Source: an uncultured Gammaproteobacteria bacterium (GTDB taxonomy: Bacteria; Patescibacteriota; Patescibacteriia; CAIXNZ01). From it: 43,480 nt of DNA. How positions within the stretch are numbered: position 1 is the first letter of the stretch; each line of letters starts with the position of its first letter. The translations under genes were made by a program, and so were the position numbers. Under the pieces are notes generated by a model. It ran no database searches. It was given only the letters and a program-made list of their open reading frames with translations, and was not told the origin of the DNA. The stretch lies in NCBI GenBank assembly GCA_964400885.1, contig CAYNWH010000001.1, positions 2,768-46,247 on the forward strand, written 5' to 3'. Below, in pieces: positions 33,976 through 43,480 of the stretch.

Positions 33976-35694
33976 ATGGTTTATCAAAGAACTAGAAGCC
34001 TTAAAAAACAAGGCAAATTTTCACGTGAACAAAAATTAAGAATTATTGTTTTGGGCGGACTTGAAGAAGTCGGACGCAATATGACTTTGCTTGAATATGG
34101 CCGTGATATTATTATTATTGACATGGGTTTGCAATTTCCTGAAGAGGACATGCCTGGCATTGATTATATTATTCCCAATATTTCTTATTTAAAAGGTAAA
34201 GAAAAAAATATTAGGGGCGTAATAATAACTCACAGTCATTATGATCATATCGGAGGTATTCCTCATATCATGCCCAAAATAGGCAATCCTATCATTTATA
34301 CTGCCAAACTTTCAGCTGGCATTATTGAAAAAAGACAGGAAGAATACAGAAATTCTCCCAAGCTTAAATTTTATATTATTGATGAAAACAGCAAATTAAA
34401 ATTAGGAATTTTTAATATTGAATTCTTTCGCGTTAATCACAATGTGCCGGATAGTTTTGGCGTTGTGGTTCATACCCAGGTCGGCACAGTTGTACATACG
34501 GGTGATTTTAAAATAGATTACAGCCCGATCAATGACAAGCCGGCTGACTTAAATCGGATTGCCAAATTTGGTGCTCAAGGCGTTTTAGCTTTAATGGCTG
34601 ACAGCACTAATGCTGAGGAAGAGGGTTATCAAATTTCTGAAACTAGAGTCAGTGATGAATTGGAAAAAATTTTTGAAGATGCTAAAGGCAGAATAATTAT
34701 TGGCACTTTTGCTTCACTTTTAAATCGTGTCCAGCAAGTCATTACTATGGCGGAAAAATTTGACCGCAAAGTTATGATTGAAGGCCGTAGCATGAAAACT
34801 AATGTAGAAATAGCTCATCGGCTTGGTTATTTAAAAATAAAACCTGGCACCTTAGTTGAATCAGAGCATTATAATGAAAAAAAATTCCCGAATAATAAAA
34901 TAGTCATTATAGGTTCTGGCGCTCAAGGCGAACAAAATGCATTTTTGGTCAGATTTGCTGAAGGCGAACATAAATTTCTGCATGTCAAAGAAGGCGATAC
35001 GGTTATTTTCTCTTCTTCAGTTATTCCTGGTAATGAAAGAACGATTCAAAACCTTAAAGATACGTTTTATCGCAAAGGCGCTAAAGTTATTCATTATAAG
35101 CTTATGGATGTCCATGCTGGCGGCCATGCCAAAAAAGAAGATTTGAAACTTTTAATTAGGTTGCTACAGCCAAAATATTATATTCCTATTGAAGCTAATC
35201 ATTATATGTTGAAAATAAATGGTGAAATAGCTGAAAGCATTGGCATTCCTAAAAGTAATATTTTTATTGCTGACAACGGTCAAGTCATAGAATTTACTGC
35301 CAAAGGCGGCCATTTAACCAGAGAATATGTGCCTTCTGATTATGTTATGGTTGATGGTTTAGGCGTCGGTGATGTCTCTAATATTGTTTTACGCGATCGC
35401 CGCGTCATGTCTGCTGACGGTATGCTGGTTGTCATTGCCACTATTGAAAATAAAACAGGCCGGCTGATTGGCAATCCTGATATTATTTCCCGCGGTTTTG
35501 TTTATATGAAAGAAAATAAAAAGCTAATTGAAGCCACGCGCATGAAAGTCAAAAAACTCTGTGAAGATACAGATACTAAATCTCCGGCTTTTGATGATTT
35601 TCTAAAAAACAAAATTCGCGATCAAATCGGCCAGTTTTTATATCAGCAGACCAAAAGACGGCCCATGATTTTGCCCGTAGTTATTAAGGTTTAA
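33976..35694 (+). CDS. rnj: Ribonuclease J
   Basis: LGGLEEVGRNM, THSHYDHIGG, HTGDFK, HAGGHA, RRPMILPV. Confidence 0.97.
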   Translation: MVYQRTRSLKKQGKFSREQKLRIIVLGGLEEVGRNMTLLEYGRDIIIIDMGLQFPEEDMPGIDYIIPNISYLKGKEKNIRGVIITHSHYDHIGGIPHIMPKIGNPIIYTAKLSAGIIEKRQEEYRNSPKLKFYIIDENSKLKLGIFNIEFFRVNHNVPDSFGVVVHTQVGTVVHTGDFKIDYSPINDKPADLNRIAKFGAQGVLALMADSTNAEEEGYQISETRVSDELEKIFEDAKGRIIIGTFASLLNRVQQVITMAEKFDRKVMIEGRSMKTNVEIAHRLGYLKIKPGTLVESEHYNEKKFPNNKIVIIGSGAQGEQNAFLVRFAEGEHKFLHVKEGDTVIFSSSVIPGNERTIQNLKDTFYRKGAKVIHYKLMDVHAGGHAKKEDLKLLIRLLQPKYYIPIEANHYMLKINGEIAESIGIPKSNIFIADNGQVIEFTAKGGHLTREYVPSDYVMVDGLGVGDVSNIVLRDRRVMSADGMLVVIATIENKTGRLIGNPDIISRGFVYMKENKKLIEATRMKVKKLCEDTDTKSPAFDDFLKNKIRDQIGQFLYQQTKRRPMILPVVIKV

Positions 35695-35890: not shown

Positions 35891-36955
35891 ATGGCCAGTT
35901 CCCATCCGCCGAGCCTTTTCGGCACAATACTCAGTAATCTGTTCAAGCTTATTTTTAACAAAAAAGTACTCATTATTATAGTAGCTCCGATTGTCTTGAC
36001 TCTCTGTTATTATTTCCTCATCCCATTTCTGGCCGACATTAATTGGGACTTCGTATCTTCTAAATTGTTCCGGACTATCCTTGCCAGCATCATTGTATTG
36101 TTGGCGCTAGGCGCGCTTATCTGGCATTATGGCCTGGAAACAATGTACGAATTCCTGACAGACAAACTGCTTAAAAAAATCTTCAGCAAGAAAGGCCTTC
36201 TAGTTTTAGGCTTGTTGGCAGCCACAGGCTTATTCTACTTTTTCCTGCTGCCGATACTGTCTTCCATAAACTGGAAAGCCATTTTTTCCGAAAAGATTTC
36301 AGTTATCATTGCTGGCATTCTCTTCTTAAGCGCGGTCATTGTGATCATGTGGGCAGGCGGTTTTCAATTGCTCTATAATTTATTTTCCTGGAAAAAAATC
36401 CTGGTGTTTTCTGCAATTATTATTTTAATATTGACTTCTGTCTTCATTTTCAGGCACAGCAATTACCTGCAATCAAAAGCCAAGATAAGCTGGGCTGAGA
36501 GTACGGAGACATTCAATCAGGAAAATGCCAGACATGCTCAAGAAGTTGATGAACTCGCCAATCAGGTCAAATCACTGGAAAAAAAAGTCCGGGATTTGAA
36601 AGCTGATATTGCAGAGCTGAAAAACCCTCCAGTGCCAACTGGCTCACCAGTCAAAACAACCGCTGCACCGGCTTCAACAGAGGAAGTTACGCAACTCAAA
36701 ACAAAAGTGGAAAATCTGGAAAATGATTTACAGAGATTAAAAGCAAAACGAAATGAGCCACGGCGAATTTTTAAGGTTAATCCGCCATCAAACAGCACTG
36801 CCATAATTGGTGCACCAACTTCAGGCTCACAAACCGATCAAATCATTCCCGGACCCAAAGCTCCACCAAGTGAGCAAATAGGACAAATTATTCCTGGACC
36901 AAAAGCGCCAGGCGGACAAGCCAATCAAATCATACTAGGGCCAAAAGCGCCTTAG
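35891..36955 (+). CDS. Multi-pass membrane protein with duplicated TM module, coiled coils and QIIPGPKAP repeats
   Basis: Repeated IF(N/S)KK..(Y/F)YF..P.L..INW modules; heptad segments; three QII(P/L)GPKAP; SD AAAAGGAGG; promoter 35813-35840. Confidence 0.82.
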   Translation: MASSHPPSLFGTILSNLFKLIFNKKVLIIIVAPIVLTLCYYFLIPFLADINWDFVSSKLFRTILASIIVLLALGALIWHYGLETMYEFLTDKLLKKIFSKKGLLVLGLLAATGLFYFFLLPILSSINWKAIFSEKISVIIAGILFLSAVIVIMWAGGFQLLYNLFSWKKILVFSAIIILILTSVFIFRHSNYLQSKAKISWAESTETFNQENARHAQEVDELANQVKSLEKKVRDLKADIAELKNPPVPTGSPVKTTAAPASTEEVTQLKTKVENLENDLQRLKAKRNEPRRIFKVNPPSNSTAIIGAPTSGSQTDQIIPGPKAPPSEQIGQIIPGPKAPGGQANQIILGPKAP

Positions 36956-37026: not shown

Positions 37027-37251
37027 TTGACAAAAATTTAAAAATATGCTAAAATGACTTATTGAATTAATTCTCTTAGGCTCCTGAAAAGTTGAATATA
37101 AATCTATTTTAAAAAAATTTGTGTATTTGTAGAATATTCGTGGATTTGTAACGATTTTTTAGTAGCTTAGGCTACTTGGAAATATTAAGGAAATTAAAAA
37201 TCTATTTGGTCTTTAAAATCAAGGAACAAAGCCAATCAAGGAGGTTTTTTC
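37027..37251 (+). promoter_or_regulatory. Promoter and conserved leader 1
   Basis: TTGACA-17-TAAAAT (37027-37055); AGTAGC-ttag-GCTACT 37161-37176; GGTCTTTAAAAT 37208-37219; CAATCAAGGAGG. Confidence 0.8.
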
Positions 37252-38376
37252 ATGAAAAAAGCGATGATCGTAATGGTGCTCATGGCCCTGGCATTTTTGC
37301 CGGCCATGGCGCAAGTGTCCAATGAGGGCCGGGTGTTTTACACCATGCCCAAGATGGAAAAACAGCACACCGAGGACGGCCGCATTTACTTCGAGGTCCA
37401 GGCTGACGGCAAAACCTGGCACATCTACGACCAGTTCGGAGCACCGTTCCCTCCGGGAACCGAAGCCGGCCGCAGCCAACGGCTGGATGGCAAATGGGAG
37501 ATCCGCATCATATACCCGACTGGGGCTACCACCTTGGTCATGGCCAACATGGTGCGCGATGCCCAGACTGGCAGCGTCAACGCAAACGCGCAGATTCAGG
37601 AATTCGATTTCGTGGGCTGGGAACGCGACCGGGCCGAAATCCCGGCCAGCACCATGCCCAAAATCGATGAACTCATCCAGAACATTCAGATCTCGGTCAT
37701 TAAAATCAAGGTCTATGTCCTGGGCGGCGTGTCCGATGAGAACATCAGGCATGCCGAATGTTATCGGGGAGAAACGTCCCCGTACTACCTGCCCAAAGAC
37801 GGAGCCGAAAACTTTCAAAAAGTGACCGGCGAGATCAACAGCGAAGGCGACAACGTTGCCTGTCAGGCGTTGCTGGCCGATGGCCGCGAAAAAACTTTTC
37901 GCGACTATCTGGTCAACCATGGCATTAACCCGGACATGATTCAGCTCTCCAGATGGGGCGGCATCATAGACATTGACAACACGCATTTCAATAACCGCGG
38001 GGTCAGGGTCCTTTTGATACCGATCACCATCTATGAACAGCTGAAAAAGGACCCACCGCCTCCGGCACCAGTCATTGACATCTACCAGATAAACACTGAA
38101 CCCGGACCGCAATCCTATACCGCGCCCCCTCCTCCGGCATCCAGCGAAAGCGACGAATGCTGGAAATGGGCGCTGGGTGGCGGGCTGGGCGGCGCCGGAC
38201 TGGGCTGGGGAGTTTCCCAAATCCAGGTGGATGGCGGCAAAGGCGCTAATAACGCCGGGGATGGCGGTAGCGTCTCCGTTTGTGGCGACAACCCTGCGGC
38301 CTGCATTGGCGGCGGCGTCCTTTTGGGAGCCGGTGGCGCCTACGTGGGCTGCAGAATCTACAAAAGCCGCCACTAG
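37252..38376 (+). CDS. Secreted protein with divergent OmpA-like domain and C-terminal glycine-zipper hairpin
   Basis: Signal peptide ending PAMA; LLADGREKTFRDYLVNHGINPDMI...NNRGVRV matches the OmpA C-terminal pattern; CWKWALGGGLGGAGLGWG. Confidence 0.8.
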   Translation: MKKAMIVMVLMALAFLPAMAQVSNEGRVFYTMPKMEKQHTEDGRIYFEVQADGKTWHIYDQFGAPFPPGTEAGRSQRLDGKWEIRIIYPTGATTLVMANMVRDAQTGSVNANAQIQEFDFVGWERDRAEIPASTMPKIDELIQNIQISVIKIKVYVLGGVSDENIRHAECYRGETSPYYLPKDGAENFQKVTGEINSEGDNVACQALLADGREKTFRDYLVNHGINPDMIQLSRWGGIIDIDNTHFNNRGVRVLLIPITIYEQLKKDPPPPAPVIDIYQINTEPGPQSYTAPPPPASSESDECWKWALGGGLGGAGLGWGVSQIQVDGGKGANNAGDGGSVSVCGDNPAACIGGGVLLGAGGAYVGCRIYKSRH

Positions 38377-38399
38377 ATCTCCTAGACCTTAATATTTTC

Positions 38400-38434
38400 A
38401 GACCCGGAAGTTTCAACTTCTGGGTCTTTTCTTT
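38400..38434 (+). terminator. Intrinsic terminator
   Basis: agacccggaagtt-tc-aacttctgggtct-tttcttt; homologous to 39980-40016. Confidence 0.8.
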
Positions 38435-38476
38435 ATTTTTAAAAAACTTACAAGCAAAACAAAAACATTAAAATAC

Positions 38477-38661
38477 TTGACAAAAAAACAAAAAAATGCT
38501 AAAATGCTTTATTAAACATTATGTTTAAGCTTTCAAAAAGAATTAATTAAAATTATAAATTAATTATTTTTGGTAGCTTAGGCTACTTTTAGATATTAAG
38601 GGAACTAGAGATCAGTTTGATCTTTAAAATCAGGAAAAAACAAATCAAAGGAGGTTTTGAA
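38477..38661 (+). promoter_or_regulatory. Promoter and conserved leader 2
   Basis: TTGACA-17-TAAAAT (38477-38505); GGTAGC-ttag-GCTACT 38572-38587; GATCTTTAAAAT 38619-38630; AAATCAAAGGAGG. Confidence 0.8.
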
Positions 38662-39957
38662 ATGAGAAAAATGTTGGTCTTTTTGGCAATCTTTTGTCTC
38701 TTGGGTGCGCCGGTAACTCCGGCATTGCCCCAGACAGCGGACACGCCGCTGGTTCTCGACAGCATGCCCACCTTGTCGTGGCAGAAAATCGACGGCGGCT
38801 CCATGCTCGTTGTCCAGGCCGGCGACAAAACGTATTACATCTTGAATGGTCAGCAGACCGCTTTTCCGCCCGACACTCAGTCCGGCCGAAAACAAAGAAG
38901 CGACGGCAAGTGGGAAGTGTACTTCCTCCTGCCCGGCGCTGATCCCCAAACCGGCTGGAAAGTTGTCAACACGAACATGGTCGGCAACAACTCCACGCCC
39001 GGCCCCGGGGTTCGGCAAGCCAAGCAGGACCTGCCGCCGGGCGTAATTCCCGAAGGCATGAGTCAGAAAGCTTCGCCTCACACGATCTTGACCGGGTTTC
39101 CGACCGGCTATGCCACGGTAACCGCGGCCATCGAACAGCAGATGGCGCACTTGGTCAAAGTCTGCAAGGACAATGATGTCCTTTGCATTCTTGAAGGCCA
39201 GGCCTCGCGCCTGAGTTACAGCGCTTGCTACGTTGACATGGACGAGGGTTATATTGCCCCACCCAGCGGCCACAACCCCAGCGAGCATCCCAATGCTCAG
39301 CTGGTCAAAGGTGACCGCAACTGCAACGAAGAGCTGGCTCAGATCCGTGCCATGAATGCGGCCAAAAAACTCGTGGAAATGGGCGTGCCCAAAGAGCGGG
39401 TTTTCTGGCTCACGCACGCCAGCTGGGGCATCAGGCCAGGCACCAACTACGAAAACCAAGCGGTCGTGGCCTTTGTCATCAGCAGAAGCTCAGTCAACAT
39501 CGAAACAAACGGTCCGGTCATCAGCAACAATGCTCCGCCGGCCGCCGAATGCCCGACCTGCAACCAGGCCGAGCCTCCCATCATTAACATTCATGGCGAC
39601 TGCTTTGTCGCCAGCCGGCAAAACGACAACGGCCGCTGGACAGTGACCGTTATCTGTTTCCTCAACAGCACTACTCCGCCAGCCCCAGCCTCAACAAAAA
39701 ACGATGAAGGTGATGATTGCTGGAAATGGGCATTGGCCGGCGGCCTGGGTGGTGGAGGACTGGGCTGGGGCGTTTCCCAGATCCAGGTCGAAGGTGGCCA
39801 AGGCGCCGGCAGTGCGGGTAATGGCGGGGATGTCTCCATTTGCGGAGACAATCCCACTGGCTGCATTGTGGGCGGAGCTCTCTTGGGTGCGGGCACCAGC
39901 TACCTGAGTTGCAAAATCTCCAAGCACCACAAGGAGTACAAAGAACACAAAAAATAA
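38662..39957 (+). CDS. Paralog: secreted OmpA-like domain protein with glycine-zipper tail
   Basis: Start reassigned to MRKMLV after SD; GFPTGYATV..LEGQAS..NEELAQIRAMNAAKKLVEMGVPKERV; CWKWALAGGLGGGGLGWGVSQIQVEGG. Confidence 0.82.
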   Translation: MRKMLVFLAIFCLLGAPVTPALPQTADTPLVLDSMPTLSWQKIDGGSMLVVQAGDKTYYILNGQQTAFPPDTQSGRKQRSDGKWEVYFLLPGADPQTGWKVVNTNMVGNNSTPGPGVRQAKQDLPPGVIPEGMSQKASPHTILTGFPTGYATVTAAIEQQMAHLVKVCKDNDVLCILEGQASRLSYSACYVDMDEGYIAPPSGHNPSEHPNAQLVKGDRNCNEELAQIRAMNAAKKLVEMGVPKERVFWLTHASWGIRPGTNYENQAVVAFVISRSSVNIETNGPVISNNAPPAAECPTCNQAEPPIINIHGDCFVASRQNDNGRWTVTVICFLNSTTPPAPASTKNDEGDDCWKWALAGGLGGGGLGWGVSQIQVEGGQGAGSAGNGGDVSICGDNPTGCIVGGALLGAGTSYLSCKISKHHKEYKEHKK

Positions 39958-39979
39958 TCCTTAGTATCTCAACATTTTC

Positions 39980-40016
39980 AGACCCAGGAATCACAGTTTC
40001 TGGGTCTTTTCTTTTT
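39980..40016 (+). terminator. Intrinsic terminator
   Basis: agacccaggaa-tcacag-tttctgggtct-tttctttt. Confidence 0.8.
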
Positions 40017-40032
40017 AAGAAAAACAATACTA

Positions 40033-40223
40033 TTGACAAAATGTCAAAAATATGCTAAACTTCTCAATTAAACTTAACTCCTGAAAAAAGGCGATTTACA
40101 TTCAAAAATAACTTTTTTTCAGTAGCTAAAAAGCTACTTTAAATTATAGAAATGGTTAAAATTTAGGCCAGCCAGCCGAACTTTGAAAAAAAACTTCGCA
40201 ACCAATCAATAAGGAGGAAGGTC
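40033..40223 (+). promoter_or_regulatory. Promoter and conserved leader 3
   Basis: TTGACA-17-TAAACT (40033-40061); AGTAGCT-aaaa-AGCTACT 40121-40138; GAACTTTGAAAA 40178-40189; CAATCAATAAGGAGG. Confidence 0.8.
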
Positions 40224-42146
40224 ATGAAAAAAATGTTTTGGATCTTGTTGGTAGTTATAAGCCTCCTTGCCGGCTGTGCTGGCAAAGGCGGTGACGACAA
40301 CTCTTCAAGCAAAACCACCAATGGCGGCGGCGGTAACGGAGGCGACGGGAATACCCCTCCCTCCGTAACCATAACTGCGCCGGCTAACGGCGCTATCTTC
40401 AACACACCGGCTAACATCATGATCAGCGCCAACGCTTCGGACGATGGCCAAGTGGTCAGCGTGGAATTTTTCTGGGGAAGCAATTCCCTGGGCATTGCCA
40501 CGCAAACGCCCTATTCTGTTCTCTGGTCCGACGTCACTCAGGGGCAATACACCCTGACTGCCGTAGCCACGGACAACCTAGGCGCCAAAACCACTTCAGC
40601 GGCCGTGACCATCACGGTCAATCAGCCACAGCCGAACAACCAACCCCCGACCGTCAGCATCACCGCGCCGACCAATGGCGCCACTTTCACGGCGCCGGCC
40701 AATATCACGGTCAACGCCAACGCCACCGATCTGGATGGCAACGTCACCCAGGTCGAGTTTTACCGCGACGGCGTACTGATCGGCATAGATTTGGTGGCGT
40801 CCTCTGGGTCCTACTCCGTTGTCTGGAACAATGTGCCTGCCGGAACTTATGTGCTGACAGCCATCGCCTATGACGACGACGGGGCCAGCACCACGTCCAA
40901 CAGTGTGACCATCACAGTCACCCAGCCGAACCAGGCACCGACGGTCACTCTGACCGCACCGGCCAATGGTGCCACTTTCACGGCACCAGCCAACATCACG
41001 CCCACCGCCACTGCCAGCGACCCGGATGGCAACATCACCGAGGTCGACATTAACGGCAATGGCATCCTGATCGGCACGGACTTGGTCGCTCCCTACTCCA
41101 TTGTCTGGAGCAATGTGCCCGCCGGGACTTATGTCCTGACCGCCATCGCCTATGACAACAGCGGGGCCAGCACCACTTCCAACAGCGTGACCATCACAGT
41201 CAACACCGGCGATACGGATGGTGATGGCGTCCCCGACGACGTGGATTGTGATCCTTTGGATCCCGATACCTGGACCAAAATGCCGTTCCGACCGGACAAT
41301 GACCAGGATTATCTGCCTGACAGCAGCACTCCAAACAATTACTGCGTCGGCGATCCGGACACTTATCCGCAAAGAACCACCACCTGGACCTCTCCTCTTG
41401 ATCCCTGCCTGGACGACAAGTATAACGCTTGCGTCACTGGTCATTTCGGAGTGGAGTGGGCCTATGGCGACACGGCAGGAACCTGGGAATCCACGGTCTA
41501 TTGGGACTGCGGTTTTCCCGACACATTCGCCCAGCAATGGCAGGCCGCAGGTACGGTCACTGGCAATGCACCGCCGCAAAACCGCGTTATGGATAGCCCT
41601 AACCCGGCTGTTCTGCGCTACGGCACATGCATCGCCAACATTCATGTTCCCGATTCGGGACTGAATCAGTGCAATGGCTGGAATGACGACTGGTTCCCGG
41701 CCGGAACCCCGACCTATGGGTTTTGTTCCAGCCTGCCCAGCGGCTACCCTCACTTTGTCTACTCCAAAACCGGAGACTCGGACATTTGGGGCTCCAGCGA
41801 TCAGCTCACACTGGACTGGGAGATCGATGTCAACACATCCGGCAACGGAGCGAACTACCTAGTCTATTTGGATCAGGGCACGAATTCCTCCGGCGCCACC
41901 GTGGCCATTGACCTGACCGATGCAGACAATGACGGCTATCCGAACGTCTGCGCAGTCGGAGCCACTGGTTGTCACCGGGACAACTGCCGACTGTTCTACA
42001 ATCCGGGTGAGGGTGGTTATCCCGCAATCCAACCGGACACGGATGGTGATGGAGTGGGAGATATCTGTGAAGGCGTCGACGATGATAACGATGGCTGGCC
42101 CAACGCCGACGACCTTTTCCCGAATGACCCCACCCGTCACGAGTAA
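40224..42146 (+). CDS. Lipoprotein with three bacterial Ig-like domains and thrombospondin type-3-like Ca-binding repeats
   Basis: Lipobox LLAGC; three P(S/T)V(T/S)(I/L)TAP.NGA.F..PANI repeats; DTDGDGVPDDVDC, DTDGDGVGDIC, DDDNDGWPNADDLFPNDP. Confidence 0.9.
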   Translation: MKKMFWILLVVISLLAGCAGKGGDDNSSSKTTNGGGGNGGDGNTPPSVTITAPANGAIFNTPANIMISANASDDGQVVSVEFFWGSNSLGIATQTPYSVLWSDVTQGQYTLTAVATDNLGAKTTSAAVTITVNQPQPNNQPPTVSITAPTNGATFTAPANITVNANATDLDGNVTQVEFYRDGVLIGIDLVASSGSYSVVWNNVPAGTYVLTAIAYDDDGASTTSNSVTITVTQPNQAPTVTLTAPANGATFTAPANITPTATASDPDGNITEVDINGNGILIGTDLVAPYSIVWSNVPAGTYVLTAIAYDNSGASTTSNSVTITVNTGDTDGDGVPDDVDCDPLDPDTWTKMPFRPDNDQDYLPDSSTPNNYCVGDPDTYPQRTTTWTSPLDPCLDDKYNACVTGHFGVEWAYGDTAGTWESTVYWDCGFPDTFAQQWQAAGTVTGNAPPQNRVMDSPNPAVLRYGTCIANIHVPDSGLNQCNGWNDDWFPAGTPTYGFCSSLPSGYPHFVYSKTGDSDIWGSSDQLTLDWEIDVNTSGNGANYLVYLDQGTNSSGATVAIDLTDADNDGYPNVCAVGATGCHRDNCRLFYNPGEGGYPAIQPDTDGDGVGDICEGVDDDNDGWPNADDLFPNDPTRHE

Positions 42147-42160
42147 CCATTTCTAACCCT

Positions 42161-42208
42161 AACCGGGCTAAGCTTTTCACCAAGAAAAGCTAGCCCGGTT
42201 TTTTTATT
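42161..42208 (+). terminator. Intrinsic terminator
   Basis: aaccgggctaagctttt...aaaagctagcccggtt-ttttt. Confidence 0.8.
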
Positions 42209-42223
42209 AAATTTAAGCTTCTA

Positions 42224-42418
42224 TTGACAAAAATTTTGCTATATGCTAAGCTTTTATATTAACATTATTATAGACTCTTATAAGCTATTAAGATAAGCTA
42301 AGTGCTATATATTTAGTATATAAAAATTAGTTTTTCTTAGTGGCTTAAAGCTACTTATAAATAAAAGTTGAGGTCATTGACCTTTGAAAAAAAATCAAAT
42401 CAAAAAAGGAGGCTTACC
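42224..42418 (+). promoter_or_regulatory. Promoter and conserved leader 4
   Basis: TTGACA-17-TAAGCT (42224-42252); AGTGGCT-taa-AGCTACT 42339-42355; GACCTTTGAAAA 42379-42390; AAATCAAAAAAGGAGG. Confidence 0.8.
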
Positions 42419-43420
42419 ATGAAGATAAGATGGCTAATTATGGTGATTTTCGTATCGTTTTCCTTGATTTTCTGGAATGGCTGCGCTGGCGGCGGCGGCG
42501 ACGACAATCGCAAAACAGTGAATAATGGCAACACTGCCAACGACACTGACGGCGATGGCGTGGCCGATCCTTATGACTGCGCGCCCAATGACAGCACACG
42601 TTACAACAACGTTTCTTTCTGGCCTGACGCCGACGGCGACGGACTCCCCGATTCCGGGAACAGCCAGCTTTTCTGCGTAGGCGCTCCCAGCACTTACCCG
42701 AATGGCTACACGCCGAATGCGCCACCTCCCCTGGATCCTTGTCCCGGGGATCATGACAACACTTGCGGCGTTCCGAGCGTACCCTACCTGCAGATCGATT
42801 TCGCCTTTGCCACGGGAACTCCGGAATGGACAGTCTATGGGACTTGCTTCCCTGACCCAGCCCCTCCGGATAATTTCCCGGAAATGTGCGAAGGCCAGTC
42901 TCATGAAGGCAGCTGCCTTGGCGCGGTTAATCCCGAAGCCATAGCAACCGGCTATTGCATCTTTGCCATAAACTTCACTCCGCCGGTTTCCAACCATTGC
43001 GGGGACGAAGTCAACTGGTTTCCCTGCCAGAGCGGCGATCAGGCCCTTTTCTCGGGTCTGGATGGCGATGGACTGGGTGGACTCCAAGTCTATCTCAGTC
43101 CCTCTGGTTTGGGCAATGACATTTTAGTCCTTGACTGGGATGTCATTGACAATGGCCAGGGCGGCGCCAACTTCATTGTCTACCTTAATTCAGGAACTGA
43201 TGATGATGGCAATGACATCACAGTCATCGTCGGTATCCTTCAGGACACTGACAATGACGGGATTCTTAATCCCGACGACAACTGCATCCGGGTCGCTAAT
43301 CCTTTACAGGAAGACCTGGACAGCAATGGCGTCGGCGATGTCTGCGTCGGCATTGATACCGACAACGATGGCTGGCTCGATGTGTCGGATGCGGATCCCA
43401 ATGATCCCAACGTCCATTGA
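42419..43420 (+). CDS. Paralogous lipoprotein with TSP3-like repeats, lacking the Ig domains
   Basis: Start reassigned to MKIRW after SD; WNGC lipobox-like; DTDGDGVADPYDC, DNCIRVANPLQEDLDSNGVGDVC; collinear with the C-half of 40224..42146. Confidence 0.88.
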   Translation: MKIRWLIMVIFVSFSLIFWNGCAGGGGDDNRKTVNNGNTANDTDGDGVADPYDCAPNDSTRYNNVSFWPDADGDGLPDSGNSQLFCVGAPSTYPNGYTPNAPPPLDPCPGDHDNTCGVPSVPYLQIDFAFATGTPEWTVYGTCFPDPAPPDNFPEMCEGQSHEGSCLGAVNPEAIATGYCIFAINFTPPVSNHCGDEVNWFPCQSGDQALFSGLDGDGLGGLQVYLSPSGLGNDILVLDWDVIDNGQGGANFIVYLNSGTDDDGNDITVIVGILQDTDNDGILNPDDNCIRVANPLQEDLDSNGVGDVCVGIDTDNDGWLDVSDADPNDPNVH

Positions 43421-43441
43421 CCAGTTCAATGACCTTACTAC

Positions 43442-43478
43442 AAACCGGACAAGTTGAAAAACTTTGTCCGGTTTTTTT
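43442..43478 (+). terminator. Intrinsic terminator
   Basis: aaaccggacaag...tttgtccggttttttt. Confidence 0.8.
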
Positions 43479-43480
43479 AT

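What the first reader, a model, noticed from the sequence alone, without database searches (positions are those of the whole stretch)
37027..43478. Tandem array of four secreted-protein cassettes sharing a conserved hairpin + boxA-like leader
Seen: four consecutive monocistronic units, each with TTGACA-17-TAAnnT preceded by TGc, a long (~150-190 nt) AT-rich leader, a GC-rich secreted-protein ORF and a terminator. The ORFs belong to two unrelated families, yet all four leaders keep, in order: a U-rich run, the hairpin RGTRGC-loop-GCTACT (37161, 38572, 40121, 42339), G..CTTTRAAA 23-39 nt later (37208, 38619, 40178, 42379), and AATCAA..AGGAGG. Both substitutions in the 5' arm are A-to-G, which gives G-U pairs and favours an RNA hairpin over a DNA operator. 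Established: rrn antiterminators are a boxB hairpin followed by boxA (E. coli TGCTCTTTAACA) bound by NusB/NusE. Inference: an undescribed cis-regulatory leader (nut-like, or an mRNA tag) co-regulating a set of host-interaction proteins. This is the best candidate for a new system in the window.
Basis: partly seen in the sequence, partly recalled or inferred. Interest (0 to 1): 0.85.

Follow-up and report, generated by a model that had tools for sequence, protein, structure and literature searches.

The report
Two-state RNA leader before surface-protein genes
Four neighbouring genes for secreted envelope proteins each start with the same undescribed, folded RNA leader, which is conserved in one small bacterial family and probably sets how long the messages last or how well they are translated.

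Summary
There are four promoter-leader-ORF-terminator units, and all share the hairpin RGTRGC-loop-GCTACT. The element is not a duplication residue. Covariance models find 19 sense-strand copies in 8 of 14 genomes of the same family (5 of 8 genera), plus 2 on metagenome contigs. Every copy lies in one syntenic locus between the RNase J gene and trpS. None was found in 147 other genomes of the class, and there is no Rfam match.

An upstream box pairs with the U-run, the 5' arm and the start of the loop to form a 16-30 bp helix, P1. P1 is present in 21 of 21 leaders, and 10 of its 21 pairs carry compensatory changes. Hp1 covaries too, and G-U far outnumbers A-C, so this is sense-strand RNA.

My best guess at mechanism (about 0.35) is that RNase III cuts P1 and hp1 then refolds as a protective 5' cap. 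No RNA data exist to test this.

The "boxA-like" box does resemble the family's own rRNA boxA, but the statistics are inconclusive. Rho was not found, and each gene has its own promoter and terminator, so a nut-like antiterminator is unlikely.

The parts
37027..37055 (+). Promoter of unit 1 (TTGACA-17-TAAAAT, TG before the -10 hexamer)
37076..37170 (+). Helix P1 of unit 1. The upstream box (37076-37108) pairs with the U-run, the 5' arm and the start of the loop (37139-37170). The apical insert between the strands is variable.
   Evidence: RNAduplex -27.1 kcal/mol, 0 of 200 shuffles as good; pair counts
37161..37176 (+). It is mutually exclusive with the base of P1.
37208..37220 (+). BoxA-like box of unit 1 (GGTCTTTAAAATC). 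It is the 3' strand of hairpin 2 running into an A-run.
37252..38376 (+). ORF u1, 374 aa: signal peptide, no Pfam family, Gly/Cys-rich C-terminus shared with u2
38477..38505 (+). Promoter of unit 2
38525..38581 (+). Helix P1 of unit 2 (38525-38549 pairs with 38557-38581)
   Evidence: RNAduplex -17.5 kcal/mol, 0 of 200 shuffles
38572..38587 (+). Hairpin hp1 of unit 2
38619..38631 (+). BoxA-like box of unit 2 (GATCTTTAAAATC)
38662..39957 (+). ORF u2, 431 aa: signal peptide, weak OmpA/MotB/Pal-like domain
   Evidence: (OmpA E 7.5e-4, below the cut-off)
40033..40061 (+). Promoter of unit 3
40073..40130 (+). Helix P1 of unit 3 (40073-40098 pairs with 40105-40130)
   Evidence: RNAduplex -14.6 kcal/mol, 0 of 200 shuffles
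40121..40138 (+). Hairpin hp1 of unit 3. It lies inside a 32-nt run identical to a leader of another genus.
40178..40190 (+). BoxA-like box of unit 3 (GAACTTTGAAAAA)
40224..42146 (+). ORF u3, 640 aa: lipoprotein signal, three Big_7 Ig-like domains, TSP3 repeat
42224..42252 (+). Promoter of unit 4 (TTGACA-17-TAAGCT)
42280..42348 (+). Helix P1 of unit 4 (42280-42312 pairs with 42317-42348)
   Evidence: RNAduplex -26.0 kcal/mol, 0 of 200 shuffles
42339..42355 (+). Hairpin hp1 of unit 4
42379..42391 (+). BoxA-like box of unit 4 (GACCTTTGAAAAA)
42419..43420 (+). ORF u4, 333 aa: lipoprotein signal, TSP3 repeats, homologous to the C-terminal half of u3
38400..38437 (+). Terminator after u1. Others: stems starting 36973 and 39980; 42162-42206 and 43445-43479 (read).

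Best explanation
Each unit carries a lineage-specific structured mRNA leader of 150-190 nt that acts in cis as RNA.

Anatomy. An upstream box (consensus UUAGGCU-N-YUGAAAAGAAUU) pairs with the A/U-rich stretch, the U-run, the 5' arm AGUAGC and the first loop bases. This forms a long helix, P1, of 16-30 bp. The two folds exclude each other at the base of P1. A second hairpin follows, whose 3' strand runs into the box GNNCUUURAAAA about 45 nt before the start codon.

Most likely mechanism. P1 is a substrate for the double-strand-specific RNase III. After the cut, the upstream strand is lost and the 5' arm refolds with the 3' arm. The mature message then begins with hp1, which shields it from 5'-to-3' decay by RNase J. 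The result would be stable, co-ordinately expressed messages for abundant envelope proteins.

Shown: the conservation, the covariation of both helices, their mutual exclusion, the strand, and the presence of the rnc and rnj genes.

Inferred: the cleavage, the refolding in the cell, and the stabilisation.

I put about 0.85 on 'a functional structured RNA leader with P1 and hp1' and about 0.35 on the RNase III processing mechanism. The confidence figure given here is for the mechanism.
For: Distribution:
- Model R3 finds sense-strand leaders in 8 of 14 family genomes (5 of 8 genera): 4+2+2+3+3+2+1+2 = 19 copies.
- Two more copies lie on metagenome contigs.
- None was found in 3 genomes of the sister family, nor in the 147 genomes of 89 other families sampled from the class.
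- All copies sit in one syntenic locus between rnj and trpS.

Helix P1:
- An unguided RNAalifold run found it, with compensatory changes at 9 of 20 pairs.
- RNAduplex picks the same partner in 17 of 17 leaders tested, at -11.6 to -27.1 kcal/mol. Thirteen of the 17 had at most 1 of 200 shuffles as good.
- On alignment A6, 93.4% of 244 cells are paired and 10 of 21 pairs changed on both sides. None of 500 shuffles reaches this, and slid controls give 32-60%.

Hairpin hp1:
- 100% of 72 cells are paired and 3 of 6 pairs are compensatory, with 0 of 500 shuffles as good.
- Further double changes occur in a G013 leader.

Strand: G-U versus A-C is 29:7 in P1 and 5:0 in hp1. Sense-strand R3 hits score 39-81 bits against 34-41 bits for their antisense echoes.

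Folding:
- In full leaders P1 dominates. The indexed P1 pair has P >= 0.95 in 9 of 12; in 2 of the other 3 my index was off.
- In RNA that starts 12 nt before hp1, hp1 forms with P >= 0.9 in 11 of 12.
- The two states differ by 2.0-7.1 kcal/mol in favour of full P1 in 11 of 12 leaders, and by -3.1 in u3.

Enzymes: rnc is present, and an RNase J-like ORF lies beside the locus (named by reading).

Precedent: RNase III cuts the long 5'UTR hairpin of S. aureus cspA and leaves a shorter, more stable message with a 5' hairpin. RNase J1 is blocked by such hairpins (PMC3386247, passages read). S-layer messages are stabilised by 5'UTR stem-loops (PMC10221546, one passage read).
Against: - No transcript data exist. 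No RNA run holds the stretch, so the transcription start sites, the cleavage and the refolding are all unobserved.
- In 3 of 21 leaders (G009a, G009b, G012a) the 3' arm of hp1 is missing. A separate hairpin that does not overlap P1 follows P1 instead. The toggle is therefore not universal.
- P1 begins 10-45 nt after the predicted start, not at the 5' end.
- Predicted accessibility of the Shine-Dalgarno sequence does not change consistently between full and shortened leaders.
- The post-hairpin box and the boxA-like box are not explained by this mechanism.
- The paralogous and orthologous leaders are not independent, and alignment A6 was cut at anchors taken from the duplex prediction, so its pair counts lean towards P1.
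- E-values of the models are rough.
Confidence: 0.35

Rival explanations
1. A factor-operated RNA toggle. A protein, small RNA or small molecule shifts the balance between the base of P1 and hp1. This exposes either the upstream box or the A/U-rich 3' arm, and so changes translation or decay of all cassettes together.
For: - Both helices covary independently. The compensatory changes of hp1 are not the ones that keep P1 paired.
- The two states lie only 2-7 kcal/mol apart, and upper P1 abuts hp1 with no spacer.
- The element is confined to one locus per genome, as expected for a dedicated regulator.
Against: - There is no conserved multi-helix core or set of conserved unpaired bases such as ligand pockets show. 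The apical part of P1 varies from 0 to about 100 nt.
- No candidate regulator gene was identified in the locus.
- Three of 21 leaders lack the overlap.
- Predicted Shine-Dalgarno accessibility is not consistently altered.
Confidence: 0.25
2. A Nus-factor site. The box GNNCUUURAAAA is a boxA bound by NusB/NusE, with a hairpin just before it. It would modify RNA polymerase (antitermination) or hold the complex near the ribosome-binding site.
For: - The family's own rRNA leaders carry GAAGUUUGACAACU (16S, 5 genomes) and GRACCUURACAAYU (23S, 3 genomes). The three 23S boxes are preceded by a hairpin whose UUAAGG can pair with CCUU[A/G]A of the box (my reading), as in the cassettes. In the G000 16S leader a different hairpin precedes the box (my reading).
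- A matrix built only from those 8 rRNA sites picks the box as best site in 4 of 4 cassettes.
- That matrix beats shuffles at p<0.05 in 11 of 21 leaders (7 at p<0.01). One leader, G006b, matches its own genome's 16S box over 12 bases.
- u1 and u2 match 10 of the 11 positions of the E. coli consensus GYTCTTTAANA (PMC5725501, passages read; match counted by reading).
- nusB is present.
Against: - No Rho RNA-binding domain was found in a genome that is 94.7% complete.
- Each cassette is monocistronic, with its own strong promoter and terminator, so there is nothing to read through.
- The box is low in information: 381 loose matches in the genome. The four cassettes rank only 67th, 34th, 8th and 30th of 236 control leaders.
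- The box is absent or weak in several leaders (G004c, G006c, G009a, G009b and G012a).
- It is partly buried in hairpin 2.
- It is not enriched before GC-rich genes in general (p 0.055).
Confidence: 0.15
3. Transcription attenuation. P1 is an antiterminator, and hp1 is a terminator that forms when a factor blocks P1.
For: The topology fits: the upstream helix shares its 3' strand with the 5' arm of a downstream hairpin. Hp1 is followed by 2-4 U.
Against: - Hp1 is weak (-3.5 to -8.1 kcal/mol) and lacks a U-tract.
- The terminator scan does not flag it, although it flags the real terminators, which have 12-bp stems and long T-runs.
- P1 forms first and is stronger, so termination would need an unknown factor.
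Confidence: 0.05
4. A DNA-level element (an operator for a dimeric repressor), or a mere residue of duplicated promoter-leader modules with no function of its own.
For: The arms form a DNA palindrome. The cassettes are paralogous, and the leaders clearly share descent.
Against: - The spacing between the half-sites varies from 4 to 18 nt.
- All one-sided changes give G-U and none gives A-C in hp1; in P1 the ratio is 29:7.
- The hairpin is kept across genera whose proteins are 23-47% identical, while the flanks have diverged.
Confidence: 0.05

Closest known systems
RNase III-processed 5'UTR of Staphylococcus aureus cspA (PMC3386247)
   Same: A long hairpin in the 5'UTR. A shorter hairpin would be left at the new 5' end. 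The organism has both RNase III and RNase J. The expected effect is a more stable, well-translated message for an abundant protein.
   Different: There is no sequence likeness. Here the short hairpin shares one arm with the long helix, so it can form only after the helix opens or is cut. The element sits before several unrelated envelope-protein genes at one locus. Cleavage has not been observed.
rRNA leader and phage lambda nut antiterminators (boxB hairpin plus boxA, NusB/NusE)
   Same: A hairpin is followed by a box that resembles the family's own rRNA boxA. nusB is present. BoxA sites are known in mRNA leaders (suhB, PMC5725501).
   Different: Rho was not found. The genes are monocistronic, with their own terminators. 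The box is degenerate (mostly AAAA where the rRNA box has ACAA) and statistically unremarkable.
5'UTR stabilisers of envelope-protein messages (Lactobacillus slpA, PMC10221546; E. coli ompA, recalled)
   Same: A strong promoter, a long 5'UTR with stable stem-loops, and abundant secreted or surface proteins downstream.
   Different: Those stabilisers are single-gene features defined by structure only. This one is a sequence family shared by 1-4 genes per genome, and it has two alternative pairings.
Antiterminator/terminator leaders (riboswitches, T-box, TRAP- or PyrR-type attenuators; recalled)
   Same: Two mutually exclusive helices share one strand.
   Different: There is no U-tract terminator, no conserved ligand- or tRNA-binding core, and no Rfam match.

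Membership tests
nut / rrn antiterminator (boxB-boxA) | BoxA sequence matching the organism's own rRNA boxA or the published consensus | tested here: inconclusive
   The matrix from 8 family rRNA sites picks the box in 4 of 4 cassettes, but the ranks are 67, 34, 8 and 30 of 236 controls. In 11 of 21 leaders p<0.05 against shuffles. u1 and u2 match 10 of 11 positions of GYTCTTTAANA (by reading).
nut / rrn antiterminator (boxB-boxA) | Terminators (Rho-dependent or intrinsic) inside the transcription unit that must be read through | tested here: not met
   Rho_RNA_bind was not found in the genome. Each ORF has its own promoter and ends at its own terminator.
nut / rrn antiterminator (boxB-boxA) | Nus factors encoded | tested here: met
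   NusB at C5:45020-45403, E 4e-40. NusE, NusA, NusG and SuhB were not searched.
nut / rrn antiterminator (boxB-boxA) | NusB/NusE binding to the box and modified elongation | not testable with these tools
   This needs a binding assay or in vitro transcription.
RNase III-processed 5'UTR (cspA type) | Long, nearly perfect RNA duplex (about two helical turns) in the 5'UTR | tested here: met
   P1 is 16-30 bp at -11.6 to -27.1 kcal/mol in 17 of 17 leaders tested, with covariation.
RNase III-processed 5'UTR (cspA type) | RNase III encoded | tested here: met
   Ribonucleas_3_3, E 1.9e-41, at C5:44440-44835.
RNase III-processed 5'UTR (cspA type) | Processed message begins with a shorter hairpin | tested here: inconclusive
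   In silico only: hp1 forms with P >= 0.9 in 11 of 12 shortened leaders. In 3 of 21 leaders another hairpin takes its place.
RNase III-processed 5'UTR (cspA type) | rnc-dependent processed 5' end in vivo | not testable with these tools
   No RNA run was listed.
Riboswitch / attenuator | Intrinsic terminator (stem plus U-tract) as one of the alternative folds | tested here: not met
   Hp1 is not flagged by the terminator scan, and only 2-4 U follow it.
Riboswitch / attenuator | Match to a described RNA family | tested here: not met
   Rfam at gathering threshold gives only 2 tRNAs in the window. At E up to 5 there are only chance hits far below gathering scores.
Palindromic DNA operator | Fixed spacing of half-sites and symmetric sequence constraint | tested here: not met
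   The spacer is 4-18 nt. G-U to A-C is 5:0 in hp1 and 29:7 in P1.

The most novel reading that the evidence does not exclude
The messages for surface proteins in this reduced, apparently Rho-less bacterium may be matured like ribosomal RNA. A leader that combines an RNase III-type duplex, a refolding hairpin and an rRNA-type boxA would recruit the Nus complex and RNase III. Output of envelope proteins would then be coupled to the cell's capacity for making ribosomes. This would be a new use of the rRNA leader machinery for a protein-coding regulon.
Probability: 0.1. Interest if true: 0.8.

Novelty: new member of a known kind. Interest (0 to 1): 0.55.

Why it matters
Almost nothing is known about gene regulation in small-genome, uncultured bacteria of this kind. 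This is a well-supported new RNA family with two covarying, mutually exclusive helices, and it controls a block of secreted or lipid-anchored envelope proteins. Those proteins are the ones most likely to shape the cell surface.

The element gives a concrete, testable handle on post-transcriptional control (RNase III, RNase J, perhaps Nus factors) in such organisms. It could also serve as a strong expression leader.

Its reach is narrow, though: one family, and one locus per genome.

Tried and rejected
- **RNA evidence.** No RNA holder was listed.
- **Read laying.** Contigs of four DNA runs showed the same strain, with 3 single-base differences, all inside ORFs. This says nothing about constraint on the leaders. 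A joint between 42070 and 42541 rests on short pieces in TSP3 repeats, and I did not trust it.
- **The 5' box.** TATTAAAC, 4 nt after the -10 hexamer, looked leader-specific. It occurs at the same offset in 17 of 169 TTGACA-17-TAnnnT promoters of the genome, including apparent non-coding RNA genes. It is therefore a general start-site feature.
- **Pairing of the 5' segment with the region after hp1.** The duplexes were no better than shuffles in most leaders.
- **Sequestration of the Shine-Dalgarno sequence by the switch.** No consistent change was predicted.
- **BoxA-like boxes as a general mark of GC-rich genes.** Not significant (p 0.055, cassettes included).
- **Whole-collection scans.** In genome contigs, 90 stretches matched the pattern and 80 were listed. 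Only one listed stretch passed model R2, and it mirrors leaders already known. In metagenome contigs, 7 stretches matched: 2 are new members, 1 was already known, and 4 were chance or weak.
- **Mobile inverted-repeat element carrying a promoter.** Considered and rejected. All copies lie at one syntenic locus, and the substitution pattern is RNA-like.
- **Protein searches.** No NCBIfam match for u1 or u2. PDB profile hits are only to OmpA/MotB/Pal domains, at E 0.004-0.02.
- **Prior description in print.** One full-text search ('candidate phyla radiation', 'structured RNA', 'UTR', 'covariation', 'motif') listed only general motif-discovery papers. I read titles and the beginnings of abstracts only. 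Supplements were closed and may hold motif lists that I could not see.

Full report
**What is in the window.** Between 37027 and 43478 lie four units on the + strand.
- Each unit has a near-consensus promoter: TTGACA, 17 nt, TAAnnT, with TG before the -10 hexamer. The scan lists three; the regex lists all four.
- Each has an A/T-rich leader of about 150-190 nt, counted from the predicted start.
- Each has a strong AGGAGG ribosome site, a GC-rich ORF (GC 0.54-0.58 in a genome of about 0.35), and a terminator.
- u1 and u2 are paralogues (31% identity) with signal peptides and a weak OmpA/MotB/Pal-like domain.
- u3 and u4 are lipoproteins with Big_7 Ig-like domains and TSP3 repeats, 34% identical over the shared half.
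- The hairpin regex and model R1 find only these four copies in the 913-kb genome.

**It is not a duplication residue.**
- A relative from another genus (G002) has the same gene order and two such leaders. One shares 32 identical bases with u3 around the hairpin, although the proteins are only 27-35% identical.
- Models were built stepwise: R1 from 4 leaders, R2 from 11 hairpin cores, R3 from 12 leaders with helix P1.
- R3 finds 19 sense-strand leaders in 8 of 14 genomes of the family, which is 5 of 8 genera.
- It finds none in 3 genomes of the sister family. It finds none in 147 genomes of 89 other families sampled from the class, under stricter filters.
- A pattern scan of one genome per species gave 90 matching stretches. 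Of the 80 listed, only one passed R2, and it repeats known leaders.
- A metagenome scan added two new leaders.
- In every genome the leaders sit in one locus: an RNase J-like gene, a membrane coiled-coil protein, the cassettes, then trpS.
- Among 66 pairs of 12 leaders, the only exact shared runs of 14 nt or more (6 pairs) all lie on the hairpin.

**The hairpin is half of a two-state structure.**
It paired an upstream box with the A/U stretch, the U-run, the 5' arm and the first loop bases.
- RNAduplex then chose this same partner in 12 of 12 leaders and in 5 of 5 added later. Energies were -11.6 to -27.1 kcal/mol, and 13 of the 17 had at most 1 of 200 shuffles as good.
- On alignment A6, helix P1 has 21 pairs, with 93.4% of 244 cells paired. 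Ten pairs changed on both sides (19 cells). None of 500 shuffles reaches this, and slid controls give 32-60%.
- A6 was cut at anchors taken from the duplex prediction, so it leans towards P1. The unguided alignment A5 nevertheless showed compensatory changes at 9 of 20 pairs.
- The short hairpin hp1 is also real: 6 pairs, 72 of 72 cells paired, 3 pairs compensatory, 0 of 500 shuffles. More double changes occur in a G013 leader.
- The changes that keep hp1 paired are not the ones that keep P1 paired, so both folds are under selection.
- G-U outnumbers A-C by 29:7 in P1 and 5:0 in hp1. Sense hits of R3 score 39-81 bits against 34-41 bits for their antisense echoes. The structure therefore forms in the sense-strand RNA and not in DNA.

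**Energetics.**
- In whole leaders the ensemble is dominated by P1. In RNA that begins 12 nt before hp1, hp1 forms with P >= 0.9 in 11 of 12 leaders.
- Forcing hp1 costs only the basal 8-9 pairs of P1. 'Upper P1 abutting hp1' lies 2.0-7.1 kcal/mol above 'full P1' in 11 of 12 leaders, and 3.1 below it in u3.
- In three leaders of one genus (G009a, G009b, G012a) the 3' arm is missing and an unrelated hairpin follows P1 directly. P1 plus an adjacent hairpin is therefore universal (21 of 21, by duplex, model or reading). The overlap is found in 18 of 21.

**The other boxes.**
- The 5' box TATTAAAC is a general start-site feature, present at 17 of 169 strong promoters.
- I located the family's own rRNA boxes. 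GAAGUUUGACAACU lies directly before the 16S processing stem in 5 genomes. GRACCUURACAAYU lies before 23S in 3 genomes.
- The cassette box resembles them, and one leader (G006b) matches its own genome's 16S box over 12 bases.
- A matrix made only from the 8 rRNA sites picks the box in 4 of 4 cassettes. It beats shuffles at p<0.05 in 11 of 21 leaders.
- The signal is weak, however. The four cassettes rank 67th, 34th, 8th and 30th of 236 control leaders. A loose form of the box occurs 381 times in the genome. The leaders are related and so are not independent.
- nusB is present and lies beside rnc. No Rho RNA-binding domain was found.
- With monocistronic units that each end at a strong terminator, processive antitermination has no evident task.

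**Mechanism.**
- Shown: a conserved, sense-strand RNA leader with two mutually exclusive covarying helices; genes for RNase III and RNase J; strong promoters and envelope-protein ORFs.
- Inferred: P1 is cut by RNase III, and the freed 5' arm refolds into hp1 at the new 5' end, which protects the message from RNase J. S. aureus cspA shows the same two-step logic (PMC3386247, passages read). S-layer 5'UTR stabilisers are another parallel (PMC10221546, one passage read).
- I give this about 0.35.
- Rivals: a toggle worked by an unknown factor (0.25); a Nus-factor site (0.15); attenuation with hp1 as terminator (0.05; hp1 is not terminator-like); a DNA operator or functionless residue (0.05).

**Comparison and novelty.**
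- No Rfam family matches. One literature search found no description, but I saw titles and the beginnings of abstracts only.
- It is a new RNA family of a known general kind, a structured 5' leader with alternative pairings, and it is confined to one bacterial family and one locus.
- The small genome, the unlinked 16S and 23S genes and the long 23S match fit a reduced, uncultured lineage. That reading is recalled and was not tested.

Noticed in passing
window 37252-43420; also G000 C2:39101-44400, C3:3557-4618, C4:37457-38161, C5:21058-22065, C13:24777-25634, C16:3692-4300: About 20 ORFs scattered through a 35% GC genome have GC3 of 0.6-0.86. Many carry signal peptides, and they sit behind ordinary A/T-rich promoters and leaders. 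In the cassette locus the GC excess is kept across genera (ORF GC 0.46-0.58 in G002, G003 and G004). It therefore does not look like recent transfer and remains unexplained.
   Followed up: partly
G000 genome-wide; in the window at 37060, 38510, 40066 and 42257: The box [TA]ATT[AGC]A lies exactly 4 nt after the -10 hexamer in 17 of 169 TTGACA-17-TAnnnT promoters. By base composition I expected about one (my estimate). Some of these promoters drive what look like structured non-coding RNAs at C3:54359, C5:22752 and C8:36106.
   Followed up: partly
G000 C5:44440-45403 (outside the window): The nusB and rnc (RNase III) genes lie side by side on the same strand.
   Followed up: no
G000 C13:12414-13915 and C1:68584-71960 (outside the window): The 16S and 23S genes are unlinked. 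The 23S match spans 3377 nt against a model of 2925, so it probably holds an insertion. In G003 the 23S match spans 4165 nt. The 16S gene is flanked by a perfect 21-bp processing stem that starts right after the boxA.
   Followed up: partly
G000 C13, 3' end of the 16S gene: The sequence around the 16S 3' end reads ...GGACCATCTCCTTTCT. The usual form, as I recall it, is ...GGATCACCTCCTTTCT. If the end is placed correctly, the anti-Shine-Dalgarno context is slightly unusual.
   Followed up: no
window 33976-35694 and 35891-36955: The cassette locus is always preceded by an RNase J-like gene (metallo-beta-lactamase type, named by reading). A membrane protein follows it, with a coiled coil and Pro-rich repeats (IIPGPKAP). 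That protein has the same type of promoter but no P1/hp1 leader.
   Followed up: partly
L026 8294-8553 (G002, third cassette) and L152 2034-2283 (G012, second cassette): Two cassettes of the same locus lack P1 and hp1 but keep a GGNCTTT[TG]AAAA box before the ribosome site. The box can therefore occur without the rest of the leader.
   Followed up: partly
window 43480 onward (G000 C1:46248...): An assembly gap (a run of N) follows directly after the last terminator, before trpS. A further cassette could be missing from the assembly.
   Followed up: no
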